From positions 36,014 to 100,013 of the forward strand of contig JACWEJ010000001.1 in the NCBI GenBank assembly GCA_014653545.1: DNA of 64,000 nt, in the 5' to 3' direction. The DNA comes from Pelagibacterales bacterium SAG-MED41 (GTDB lineage Bacteria; Pseudomonadota; Alphaproteobacteria; Pelagibacterales; Pelagibacteraceae). This document shows positions 35,655-38,842 of this stretch, in pieces. A program made the translations under genes and the position numbers. Under the pieces are notes generated by a model. It made no database searches. It saw nothing but the letters and a program-made list of their open reading frames with translations, and had not been told where the DNA came from. The number at the start of each line of letters is the position of its first letter. Position 1 is the first letter of the stretch.

Positions 35655-36278
35655 ATGAAAAAATTTATAAATAAAAAACTAATACTTTTAGATTTAGATG
35701 GTGTTTTAATAAAATCGCTTAAAAATATGGAATTAGCTTGGAAAAGCACTACAAAAAAATTTTCTTTAAATATAAAATTTGTCAAATATAAAAGATATAT
35801 AGGCATTCCTTTTAAAGATATTTTAAAAGCTCTAAAAATTAAAAAAAAACTTTACCATTCAATTGAGAAAGAATTTAAAAAACAATCTATTATAAACTTG
35901 GAAGCAATCACTTTTTATCCTGGCGTTCTTAAAACACTTAAAAATTTAAAAAAGAAATATGACGTTGGTGTGCTTACTTCTAAAGATAATTATCGTACAA
36001 AAAAAATTTTAAATAAATTGAATTTTAAATTTGATTTGATTCAATGTCCTATCCCTAATTTAAGAGGTAAGCCTTATCCAGATTTAATTTTGAAAATTTT
36101 AGATAAATTAAAAAAAAAAAAAAATGAAGTTATTTATGTTGGAGACACCAAATTTGATCTTATGACTTGTAAGGCTGCTAAAATAGATTTTATTTTAGCA
36201 AAATATGGTTATAAGATCGGCATAAAAAATTATAAATTTTCTATCAATAAATTTAAAGATTTAGATAATTTTTTTTAA
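35655..36278 (+). CDS. HAD-superfamily hydrolase (phosphoglycolate-phosphatase-like)
   Basis: DLDGVL motif I, LTSK motif II, KPYPD motif III, YVGDT..D motif IV. Confidence 0.9.
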   Translation: MKKFINKKLILLDLDGVLIKSLKNMELAWKSTTKKFSLNIKFVKYKRYIGIPFKDILKALKIKKKLYHSIEKEFKKQSIINLEAITFYPGVLKTLKNLKKKYDVGVLTSKDNYRTKKILNKLNFKFDLIQCPIPNLRGKPYPDLILKILDKLKKKKNEVIYVGDTKFDLMTCKAAKIDFILAKYGYKIGIKNYKFSINKFKDLDNFF

Positions 36279-36279
36279 C

Positions 36280-36308
36280 TTTACACATCTATTTAATTTC
36301 TTTATAAC
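36280..36308 (+). promoter_or_regulatory. Putative sigma70 promoter of the riboswitch-thiV transcript
   Basis: TTTACA (36280-36285) N17 TATAAC (36303-36308); predicted start about 36315, at the 5' strand of P1. Confidence 0.6.
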
Positions 36309-36315
36309 ATATCTA

Positions 36316-36389
36316 TCTATATGGGGTGTCAATTAGACTGAGATTATACCCAAAGAACCTGACCGGTAATTCAGTAAGGGAAACATGGA
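36316..36389 (+). ncRNA. TPP (THI-box) riboswitch, atypical P4/P5 half
   Basis: GGGGUG...CUGAGA..AUACCC...AACCUGA...UAAU...AGGGAA hallmarks directly before a transporter ATG. Confidence 0.88.
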
Positions 36390-37836
36390 AAAAGCATACT
36401 TATCAATACAAGCGACTTTATTAGTAATCGTCTTAGTTGGCACATTCTTTATATTACTTGGATATTTAAACTCGAAAAAATTCATTAATAATAACAATTA
36501 TATTGTTGGAGACAGAGACGAAAATACATTTTCATTAACAGCAAGTTTAACCGCATCCGCTTTAGGAGCTTGGATATTGTTTGGACCTGCTTCTGCTGCC
36601 ACATGGGGAGGTATCGGAGCTGTATTTGGCTATGCTTTAGGAACAGCAGCACCCATGCTTTTTTTATACAATTTTGGGCCCAAAATAAGAAAAGAATTTC
36701 CAAATGGTCTAACATTAACTGAATTTATAAAAAAAAGATTTGGCACAGGCATACTTAAGATTTGTTTATTTTTAATACTTTTTTATTTAACAATATTTTT
36801 AATAGCTGAGGTGACAGCCATAGCAGCTCTTTTAAAATACACCTCCCAGGTTCCCTTATGGGTTACCGCAGCAATAACCTTGATTATTTGCTTATTATAT
36901 ATTTTAAGAGGTGGATTTAAACTTTCAATTATAACAGATAAATATCAATTTAGTTTTATAGTAGTAATTATTTTGTCATCACTTTTTTTAGTATTAGGAA
37001 AATTAGATATACCAAGTTTTGAAATAATCAAAAAAAATTCACCTAATTTAATTGATAAAAATTATTTACCAAATTATACAGCTGGATTAACTTTTTTTAT
37101 TGCAGTAGCAGCCACAAATTTGTTTCATCAAGGAAATTGGCAAAGAGTGTTCTCAGCTAAAAATAATAGGATACTTAAATCTAGTTTAATTTATTCTTCA
37201 ATAATTACATTTATAATTGTTTTTTGGATGGGGTATACTGGGTTATTATCTCTATCTTTGAATTCAAAAGTAATACCGGATTTAGCATTCTTTGATTTAC
37301 TATTTTATAAAAAAAATGCAGCAATAGTTATTGCTATATTAATTTTATCAATGTCATTAACTTTAAGTACTATCGATACTTTAATTAACGCTATTTCTAG
37401 TTTAATTATTATTGATGGTAAATTTGTAAATAAATCTTTGAAAGGTAAGGAAGTAAAAAATAAAGCAAATATAATAATAGTTTTACTTTCTGTTCTAGTT
37501 TTTATATTAGCTTCAAAAGGTTTTAGTATACTGTATTTATTCCTATTAGCAGATCTATTATGTTGTGCAGCAGTTATTACAATTTTTTATGGTTTTTTTA
37601 ATAAAAAGATTAATACGAAATTAGCTTCTTATACAATATTTATTGGATTGTTCTCTGGATTGTTATTTTTTCCAAGTCAAAATTTTCAATCAAGTTTTTT
37701 AGTAGGTAATCTTATATCTATAGAATACTTTACTCCTTTAATATCTGCGAATTTGTTATTTCTTTCATTTGCAATTTCAATAATCATCCCGCTAATAATT
37801 ATTTCAATTTATTCTTTACGTAATTCATTTAAGTAA
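36385..37836 (+). CDS. thiV: Sodium:solute symporter family protein, ThiV-like (thiamin/pyrimidine precursor uptake)
   Basis: SSS-like motifs (ASALGAWILFGPA, TLTEFIKKRFG, QGNWQRVFSAK, STIDT); TPP riboswitch in leader. Confidence 0.75.
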   Translation: MEKAYLSIQATLLVIVLVGTFFILLGYLNSKKFINNNNYIVGDRDENTFSLTASLTASALGAWILFGPASAATWGGIGAVFGYALGTAAPMLFLYNFGPKIRKEFPNGLTLTEFIKKRFGTGILKICLFLILFYLTIFLIAEVTAIAALLKYTSQVPLWVTAAITLIICLLYILRGGFKLSIITDKYQFSFIVVIILSSLFLVLGKLDIPSFEIIKKNSPNLIDKNYLPNYTAGLTFFIAVAATNLFHQGNWQRVFSAKNNRILKSSLIYSSIITFIIVFWMGYTGLLSLSLNSKVIPDLAFFDLLFYKKNAAIVIAILILSMSLTLSTIDTLINAISSLIIIDGKFVNKSLKGKEVKNKANIIIVLLSVLVFILASKGFSILYLFLLADLLCCAAVITIFYGFFNKKINTKLASYTIFIGLFSGLLFFPSQNFQSSFLVGNLISIEYFTPLISANLLFLSFAISIIIPLIIISIYSLRNSFK

Positions 37837-38750: not shown

Positions 38751-38842
38751 GGAAGAGTGGGTGAGCGGTTTAAACCAGTTGGTTGCTAACTAACCGTACG
38801 AGTAACATCGTACCGAGAGTTCGAATCTCTCCTCTTCCGCCA
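38751..38842 (+). tRNA. tRNA-Ser (anticodon GCU)
   Basis: Acceptor GGAAGAG/CTCTTCC, anticodon arm GTTGG-TT GCT AA-CTAAC, long variable arm GTACGA/TCGTAC, T arm GAGAG-TTCGAAT-CTCTC, G discriminator, encoded CCA. Confidence 0.97.

What the first reader, a model, noticed from the sequence alone, without database searches (positions are those of the whole stretch)
36316..36389. TPP riboswitch variant with a rebuilt pyrophosphate-sensing half
Seen: the pyrimidine-sensing half is canonical (GGGGUG-UCAAUUAGA-CUGAGA-UUAUACCC). The second half reads ACCUGA-CCGG-UAAU-UCAG-UA-AGGGAA, against the E. coli thiM pattern ACCUGA-UCUGG-AUAAUG-CCAG-CGU-AGGGAA. It is shorter, the GCG motif before AGGGAA is absent, and P5 (CCGG/UCAG) has a C-A mismatch. 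An alternative CUGA/UCAG helix could absorb the GA of J4/5. Established: J4/5 and J5/4, including that GCG, bind the pyrophosphate and Mg2+, while CUGAGA binds the HMP ring. Inference: this may be a specificity-shifted aptamer sensing thiamin, HMP or a monophosphate, which would suit a precursor transporter. It may instead be a weakened or lineage-typical TPP switch.
Basis: partly seen in the sequence, partly recalled or inferred. Interest (0 to 1): 0.72.

Follow-up and report, generated by a model that had tools for sequence, protein, structure and literature searches.

The report
SAR11 thiV riboswitch, pyrophosphate pocket rebuilt
The RNA switch ahead of the vitamin-B1-precursor importer in this SAR11 ocean bacterium is a conserved offshoot of the TPP riboswitch that keeps the half reading the vitamin's pyrimidine ring but has lost the nucleotides that normally read its pyrophosphate, so which B1 compound it senses is open and testable.

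Summary
Window 36322-36381 (+) matches RF00059 at 42.9 bits, below the 54.3 cut-off. The pyrimidine-sensor arm is fully canonical. The second arm is 4 nt shorter and lacks the J5/4 'CG' (C77/G78 of E. coli thiM).

This is not private decay. The same arm is 20/26 invariant in 108 distinct sequences from at least 13 Pelagibacteraceae genera, including HTCC1062, whose ThiV proteins are only about 51-53% identical. It was found in 262 of 401 Pelagibacterales genomes and in 0 of 400 other Pseudomonadota.

Covariation redraws the arm. The internal loop is replaced by a base pair, 36362-36375 (A-U 76, U-A 23, G-U 9, never unpaired). What remains is a G·purine mismatch, a conserved C·A mismatch, a G·U pair and a UAAU loop.

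AGGG in the P4 3' strand is the likely ribosome-binding site, 4 nt before the AUG. The most likely mechanism is a ligand-stabilised translational OFF switch.

The element is already published as the SAR11 'TPP riboswitch', and its ligand is untested. I found no published note of the pocket loss. This scan reached the same reading on another SAR11 genome (e1-5478765).

I put TPP still being sensed at about 50% and a shifted ligand at about 35%.

The parts
36322..36352 (+). Pyrimidine (HMP)-sensor arm. P2 pairs 36322-36326 with 36349-36352, and U36327 pairs with A36346. The short P3 hairpin is GUC/GAC at 36328-36338. The J3/2 motif CUGAGA is at 36338-36343.
   Evidence: The cmscan alignment to RF00059 matches all conserved positions. 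GGGG, CUGAGA and ACCC are invariant in 108 sequences. P2 and P3 pairs covary: col2-35 shows AU/CG/UA/GU/GC and col9-20 shows UA/CG.
36353..36357 (+). J2/4 linker (AAGAA) between the two arms.
   Evidence: The final AA is invariant and the G is at least 90% conserved in alignment A2.
36358..36381 (+). Rebuilt pyrophosphate-sensor arm. P4 is CCU/AGG (36358-36360 with 36377-36379). G36361·A36376 is a purine-purine mismatch, and G36361 corresponds to thiM G60. The covarying pair 36362-36375 replaces J4/5 and J5/4. The remaining pairs are C36363-G36374, the C36364·A36373 mismatch, G36365-C36372 and G36366·U36371. The loop UAAU is at 36367-36370.
   Evidence: the count of structure pairs on 108 distinct sequences gives 36362-36375 as AU 76, UA 23, GU 9 and unpaired 0. 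C·A is 100 against U-A 8, and G·U is 105 against A-U 3. RNAalifold independently gives the same consensus, and the single-sequence MFE gives the same hairpin at -3.7 kcal/mol. The mismatch partner is A in 68, G in 63 and U in 1 of 132 sequences.
36377..36381 (+). AGGGA, the 3' strand of P4 and the likely Shine-Dalgarno sequence of thiV.
   Evidence: It lies 4 nt upstream of the AUG here and typically 2-9 nt upstream in relatives. The Shine-Dalgarno role is inferred and not tested.
36385..37836 (+). thiV, a 483-aa sodium:solute symporter and the regulated gene.
   Evidence: PF00474 SSF at E 2.9e-15. It is 96% identical to ThiV of another Pelagibacteraceae SAG and 53% identical to HTCC1062 ThiV. 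ThiV is the SAR11 HMP transporter in the literature (PMC11452348).

Best explanation
This is the SAR11-type thiV leader. It is a functional, lineage-typical descendant of the TPP riboswitch in which only the pyrophosphate-sensor arm has been rebuilt. The HMP-ring pocket (P2, P3, J3/2 CUGAGA) is intact. In the other arm, the J4/5-J5/4 internal loop that carries C77 and G78 has been deleted and replaced by one Watson-Crick pair. P4 and P5 therefore form one nearly continuous, marginally stable hairpin, interrupted by a conserved G·purine mismatch (the retained G60) and a conserved C·A mismatch. There is no conserved P1 and no separate expression platform. The 3' strand of P4 (AGGG) is the ribosome-binding site, a few nucleotides before the AUG. 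Inferred mechanism: an HMP-bearing thiamin metabolite docks its pyrimidine ring in the canonical pocket. Its distal, probably phosphorylated, end reaches the G·purine mismatch region of the second arm. This bridges the two arms, stabilises P4-P5, hides the ribosome-binding site and turns thiV translation off. My default for the ligand is still TPP (possibly TPP and TMP with poor discrimination), read through a non-canonical pocket. The structure, conservation and gene association are shown. The Shine-Dalgarno role, the OFF logic and the ligand are inferred.
For: There is a full-length RF00059 match with every pyrimidine-arm position conserved. The second arm is 20/26 invariant over 108 distinct sequences whose ThiV proteins fall to about 51-53% identity. 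Pair 36362-36375 is kept as A-U, U-A or G-U with no exception. G-U needs at least 3 independent changes on the ThiV tree. RNAalifold gives the same fold. G60 is invariant and always faces a non-pairing purine, apart from one G·U, which argues that its face is needed rather than helix stability. The hairpin is only -3.7 kcal/mol, a suitable range for ligand tuning. The AUG follows AGGGA closely in all relatives. The same variant aptamer also precedes an NMT1/THI5-like gene in another genus, so it is a portable regulator of pyrimidine-precursor genes. Published work calls it a TPP riboswitch (PMC2704228, PMC4260697) and reports HMP uptake shutting down within an hour of HMP addition (PMC11452348).
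Against: The nucleotides that contact the pyrophosphate and its metals in solved TPP aptamers (C77, G78) and the one that contacts the thiazole (G72) are absent (PMC3764141, PMC7824784). The partner of G60 is freely A or G among close relatives, so it makes no base-specific contact. The score is below the Rfam cut-off in every variant-class genome. Folding energy is no better than for shuffled sequence (z 0.19 to 0.57). No binding, reporter or transcript-start data exist for any member.
Confidence: 0.55

Rival explanations
1. Specificity-shifted aptamer. The rebuilt arm no longer reads a pyrophosphate on a thiazole spacer. The switch then responds to another HMP-bearing compound produced after import, such as HMP-P, HMP-PP, TMP or free thiamin. 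That would make it a distinct riboswitch class derived from TPP.
For: C77, G78 and G72 are lost while all HMP-ring contacts are invariant (PMC3764141, PMC7824784). The loss is ancient, apparently of single origin and maintained: variant-class and g14-type leaders sit on one deep ThiV clade. Sister SAR11 genera keep a fully canonical arm and P1 before the other ThiV clade, so the canonical design was available and was not retained. The controlled genes act on the pyrimidine precursor. There is precedent in other riboswitch classes, where binding-site variants have altered ligands (PMC9295807).
Against: G60 and the arm geometry (P4 length, J2/4, L5 UAAU) are conserved as in TPP aptamers, so a phosphate-bearing end could still land at the same place. 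End-product sensing is the simplest logic for the only thiamin riboswitch in the genome. No biochemical data exist. HMP alone could not bridge the two arms, and with no P1 there is no other evident way to couple binding to the ribosome-binding site.
Confidence: 0.35
2. Ligand-independent leader. The element is a relic whose hairpins merely set a constitutive translation level or act as a thermometer-like attenuator of thiV.
For: There is no conserved P1. The score is below threshold. Folding energy is not better than shuffles. HTCC7211 ThiV was described as constitutively expressed (PMC11452348).
Against: Every ligand-contacting position of the pyrimidine pocket, including unpaired CUGAGA, is invariant across genera whose proteins have diverged by about half. 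A simple attenuator does not need these positions. Mismatches are conserved as mismatches rather than drifting to pairs.
Confidence: 0.07
3. Private decay or assembly error of a canonical TPP riboswitch in this single-cell genome.
For: The assembly is only 60% complete.
Against: An identical second arm occurs in dozens of independent SAGs, MAGs and complete genomes.
Confidence: 0.01

Closest known systems
TPP riboswitch / THI element (Rfam RF00059; E. coli thiM aptamer)
   Same: P2-P3 arm with GGGG...CUGAGA...ACCC. P4 is CCU/AGG followed by G60. P5 is capped by a UAAU-containing L5. It has a 3' AGGGA, is associated with thiamin genes, and has translational control through the ribosome-binding site.
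   Different: The J4/5-J5/4 internal loop, including C77 and G78, is deleted and replaced by a covarying pair. G72 is replaced by U. Conserved G·purine and C·A mismatches are present. There is no conserved P1. It scores 35-49 bits against the 54.3 cut-off.
The published SAR11 'TPP riboswitch' upstream of thiV (SAR11_0811 in HTCC1062; Meyer 2009 PMC2704228; McRose 2014 PMC4260697; PMC11452348)
   Same: It is the same element. The HTCC1062 copy (L120/L261) belongs to the same variant class (the U-A form of the covarying pair) and precedes the orthologous transporter.
   Different: Those papers treat it as an ordinary, if short, TPP riboswitch. In the texts I could read, I found no mention of the lost pyrophosphate contacts or the missing P1. 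Carini 2014 and Weinberg 2017 could not be read.
Canonical TPP riboswitches of other Pelagibacteraceae genera (g10, g12, g17, a minority of g8)
   Same: Same family of bacteria, same compact layout with the AUG right after AGGGA, and mostly before a ThiV-type symporter (45% identical).
   Different: They keep J4/5 'AU', J5/4 'CG', a 6-nt L5 ending in G and a clear P1 (GUUUUC/GAAAAC or GUUC/GAAC). They score 55-72 bits.
HMP-PP riboswitch (thiS motif; PMC6478431)
   Same: It senses or regulates around a thiamin pyrimidine precursor, and it is small.
   Different: Its architecture is unrelated: a terminator-embedded hairpin acting on transcription as an ON switch. No Rfam family other than TPP scores on this region apart from one chance-level sRNA hit.

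Membership tests
TPP riboswitch (RF00059) | Covariance-model score at or above the curated gathering score (54.3 bits) | tested here: not met
   The window scores 42.9 bits. All variant-class relatives score 35-49 bits, and only 25 of 151 Pelagibacteraceae genomes reach the cut-off.
TPP riboswitch (RF00059) | Pyrimidine-sensor arm: P2, P3 and the J3/2 T-loop motif CUGAGA | tested here: met
   The motifs align to the model, are invariant in 108 sequences, and P2/P3 pairs covary.
TPP riboswitch (RF00059) | Pyrophosphate pocket: J4/5-J5/4 internal loop with conserved G60, C77 and G78 | tested here: not met
   G60 is present and invariant. C77 and G78 and the loop are absent, replaced by the pair 36362-36375. 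49 of 50 control TPP hits keep CG.
TPP riboswitch (RF00059) | P4-P5 arm capped by L5 with a UAAU core | tested here: met
   UAAU at 36367-36370 is invariant, and P5 pairs are kept.
TPP riboswitch (RF00059) | P1 helix closing the three-way junction | tested here: not met
   In the variant class, native 5'/3' flank duplexes (-1.68 kcal/mol) are no better than permuted ones (-1.52). No fixed-register 4-bp helix occurs in more than 26% of sequences. The window itself could form UCUAU/AUGGA, but this is not conserved.
TPP riboswitch (RF00059) | Location in the 5' leader of thiamin synthesis or transport genes | tested here: met
   It lies directly upstream of thiV. In another genus it lies upstream of an NMT1/THI5-like gene.
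TPP riboswitch (RF00059) | Selective binding of thiamin pyrophosphate | not testable with these tools
   This needs in-line probing or ITC. The literature says the specificity is unconfirmed (PMC11452348).
HMP-PP riboswitch (thiS motif) | Aptamer embedded in an intrinsic terminator hairpin followed by a U-run | tested here: not met
   There is no terminator-like site in 36150-36450 and no Rfam hit other than TPP and a chance sRNA match.

The most novel reading that the evidence does not exclude
The pocket-less form is a separate riboswitch class, derived from TPP. In the ocean's most abundant bacteria it reads a different thiamin-pathway compound (HMP-P or HMP-PP, TMP or thiamin) to gate import or synthesis of the pyrimidine precursor. 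It would work as two ligand-bridged hairpins without a closing helix.
Probability: 0.3. Interest if true: 0.85.

Novelty: new variant of a known kind. Interest (0 to 1): 0.58.

Why it matters
SAR11 cells are HMP auxotrophs, and this leader is the only recognisable thiamin-responsive element they carry. It probably sets how the most abundant marine heterotrophs draw on the dissolved vitamin-B1 precursor pool. If the rebuilt arm still binds TPP, it shows a second, much smaller way for RNA to hold a pyrophosphate and a minimal two-hairpin TPP switch. If it binds another compound, it is a new ligand class hiding under a familiar name. On the practical side, Rfam's cut-off misses it in most SAR11 genomes, so surveys that count TPP riboswitches in marine data under-report it.

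Tried and rejected
1. Alternative CUGA/UCAG helix. It was rejected because its fourth pair is U·U in 23 of 108 sequences, while the competing pair never fails.

2. My own early reading that P3 is missing. It was wrong. The hairpin that Rfam places between CUGAGA and ACCC is optional, and P3 is the short GUC/GAC hairpin (corrected in note 3).

3. Search for a P1. Fixed-register and native-versus-permuted duplex tests found none in the variant class.

4. Promoter and transcript start. The consensus scan found no plus-strand promoter in the window or in L032. A conserved TTGACT...TATA block upstream in relatives suggests a start within a few nt of GGGG, but this is unproven.

5. RNA-seq evidence.

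6. Link between riboswitch type and thiL. There is none. ThiL is present in g8 and was not found in g1, g12, g14 or g17.

7. Metagenome scans for other pair types. There were no C/G-C/G combinations. Only one contig has A opposite a non-U (L293, which also has other changes). The denominator was not measured.

8. Thermodynamic support. Z-scores are about 0, so the case rests on conservation and covariation only.

Full report
**What is there.** The plus strand at 36322-36381 lies between a HAD-type hydrolase gene (35655-36278) and a 483-aa sodium:solute symporter (36385-37836, PF00474). The symporter is 70-96% identical to 80 loci from Pelagibacteraceae single-cell and metagenome genomes. This is ThiV, the HMP transporter of SAR11 (PMC11452348). 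At Rfam's curated thresholds the window yields only a tRNA. With E-value thresholds, 36312-36400 aligns end to end with RF00059 at 42.9 bits (cut-off 54.3, E 2e-7). That alignment deletes exactly the two J4/5 positions and the two J5/4 positions 'CG'. It is the only TPP-like hit in this 681-kb, 60%-complete assembly.

The stretch CCUG-N-CCGG-UAAU-UCAG-N'-R-AGGGA recurs almost unchanged in all ThiV loci fetched. It also recurs in genera g1, g2, g4, g6-g9, g11, g13, g16, g18 and g19 of the family. In an alignment of 108 distinct cores, 20 of the 26 second-arm positions are invariant. The ThiV proteins behind these cores are only 51-53% identical between genera.

The exact pattern is present in 262 of 401 Pelagibacterales genomes. 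That breaks down as 261 of 340 in Pelagibacteraceae and 0 of 60 in the sister family. It is present in none of 400 other Pseudomonadota sampled. One of the carriers is the 1,308,759-bp genome in which Meyer et al. listed a 'TPP riboswitch' at 786467-786574 before SAR11_0811 (PMC2704228). So the published SAR11 riboswitch is this same variant.

**How unusual the loss is.** I sampled one genome per alphaproteobacterial family. In that sample, 98 of 103 genomes with a hit exceed the Rfam cut-off, and the window's hit is the weakest of all. Of 50 hits inspected (the 30 best and the 20 weakest), 49 keep 'CG' directly before N-AGG. Published structure surveys list G60, C77 and G78 among the most conserved nucleotides. 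Together they hold the metal-pyrophosphate group, with direct hydrogen bonds from C77 and G78, and G72 touches the thiazole (PMC3764141, PMC7824784). Here G60 (36361) is invariant, C77 and G78 are absent, and the position equivalent to G72 is U.

**Structure of the rebuilt arm.** Covariation gives a clear answer.
- The nucleotide after CCUG (36362) and the one after UCAG (36375) form A-U in 76, U-A in 23 and G-U in 9 of 108 sequences. They are never unpaired.
- On a ThiV tree the U-A form is essentially one clade, so it counts as one or two events. The G-U form needs at least three independent changes.
- The C·A opposition (36364·36373) is kept in 100 sequences and becomes U-A in 8. The loop-closing G·U becomes A-U in 3.
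- G36361 always faces a purine: A in 68, G in 63 and U in one of 132 sequences.
- RNAalifold, run without my structure, returns the same consensus. The single-sequence minimum-energy fold gives the same hairpin at -3.7 kcal/mol.

In short, the J4/5-J5/4 internal loop has been excised. P4 and P5 are now one nearly continuous helix with two conserved non-Watson-Crick oppositions. Folding energies are not better than for shuffled sequence, so the argument rests on conservation and covariation.

**No conserved P1.** In the variant class, duplexes between the native 5' and 3' flanks average -1.68 kcal/mol, against -1.52 for permuted partners. No 4-bp helix in a fixed register occurs in more than 26% of sequences. 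The SAR11 genera that keep the canonical arm (g10, g12, g17) have obvious P1 helices of about -6 to -6.7 kcal/mol. The window itself could pair UCUAU with AUGGA across the start codon, but relatives do not share this. The transcript start is unknown. A conserved -35/-10-like block in relatives would place it within a few nucleotides of GGGG, but consensus scans were inconclusive and the read-mapping route was not available.

**Evolutionary setting.** ThiV proteins fall into two deep groups. One carries canonical riboswitches (g10, g12, a minority of g8, and g15 on a long branch). The other carries the variant class plus a g14 form that retains a single J4/5 G and no J5/4. The pocket loss therefore looks like one old event that has been maintained since. 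In genus g2 the identical variant aptamer mostly precedes a 289-aa NMT1/THI5-like protein instead of thiV. So it behaves as a portable regulator of pyrimidine-precursor genes.

**Mechanism.**
- Shown: an intact HMP-ring pocket; a conserved, covarying second hairpin whose 3' strand is AGGG; and an AUG 4 nt after AGGGA here, typically 2-9 nt in relatives.
- Inferred: AGGG(A) is the ribosome-binding site. A ligand that docks its pyrimidine ring in the first arm and reaches the G·purine mismatch of the second arm would lock the marginal hairpin and block initiation. This gives an OFF switch with no separate expression platform.

With no P1, bridging the two arms is the only evident way to couple binding to the ribosome-binding site, which argues against bare HMP as the ligand. 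G60 is invariant and is never allowed to pair with C, which suggests a phosphate- or metal-facing role persists. C77, G78 and G72 are lost and the partner of G60 alternates freely between A and G, so recognition cannot be canonical. My estimates are about 50-55% for TPP (perhaps with poor TMP discrimination), about 35% for another HMP-bearing ligand, and under 10% for no ligand. Physiology fits a feedback OFF switch, since uptake attenuates within an hour of HMP exposure. The authors of that work note that ligand specificity is unconfirmed (PMC11452348).

**Novelty.** The element and its gene association are published (PMC2704228, PMC4260697, PMC11452348). I found no paper describing the excised pyrophosphate loop, the conserved mismatches or the missing P1. 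Carini 2014 and Weinberg 2017 could not be opened. I saw those notes only after my own analysis.

**Side result.** The usual TMP kinase ThiL is present in g8. It was not found above its cut-off in g1 (0 of 13, where the hits are PurM and PurL) or in complete g12, g14 and g17 genomes. Thiamin pyrophosphokinase was found only in the sister family.

Noticed in passing
It is present in g8, including HTCC1062. Thiamin pyrophosphokinase (TIGR01378) was found only in the sister family. The last step to TPP is therefore unassigned in several SAR11 genera.
   Followed up: partly
L267:74-943 (+), and other g2 loci L132-L146: In genus g2 the same pocket-less aptamer mostly precedes a 289-aa NMT1/THI5-like protein (PF09084) with no obvious signal peptide. 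This may be a THI5-type HMP-P synthase or a ThiY-like binding protein, rather than thiV.
   Followed up: partly
L007:746-1510 (-) and L020:1577-2248 (+): Canonical TPP aptamers in g17 and g12 precede a 254-aa short-chain dehydrogenase (compare OarX, PMC11223231) and a 223-aa Gcw_chp-family protein with a signal-like N-terminus. These are candidate extra thiamin-salvage or uptake parts.
   Followed up: partly
ThiV tree: SAR11 ThiV proteins form two deep clades about 42-46% identical to each other, and the clades track riboswitch type. Genus g8 contains genomes with one type or the other.
   Followed up: partly
L174 (genus g15): A further form (AAUCCG-CAUG-GUAAUG-CAUG-AGGGA) also lacks the J5/4 CG but sits in the 'canonical' ThiV clade on a long branch. 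This may be a second, independent pocket loss.
   Followed up: no
L293:11209-11233 (-): This is the only metagenome contig found with A opposite a non-U (A·C) at the covarying pair. It also has GAGG in place of GGGG, so it may be a decaying or further diverged copy.
   Followed up: partly
window 35655-36278 and 36279-36321: The upstream neighbour here is a HAD-IA phosphatase-like gene. The 70 nt upstream of the aptamer differ completely from those of L032, although the two ThiV proteins are 96% identical, so local synteny is not conserved.
   Followed up: no
window 38751-38839: An 89-nt tRNA with a long variable arm (53 bits) is the only Rfam hit in the window at curated thresholds.
   Followed up: no
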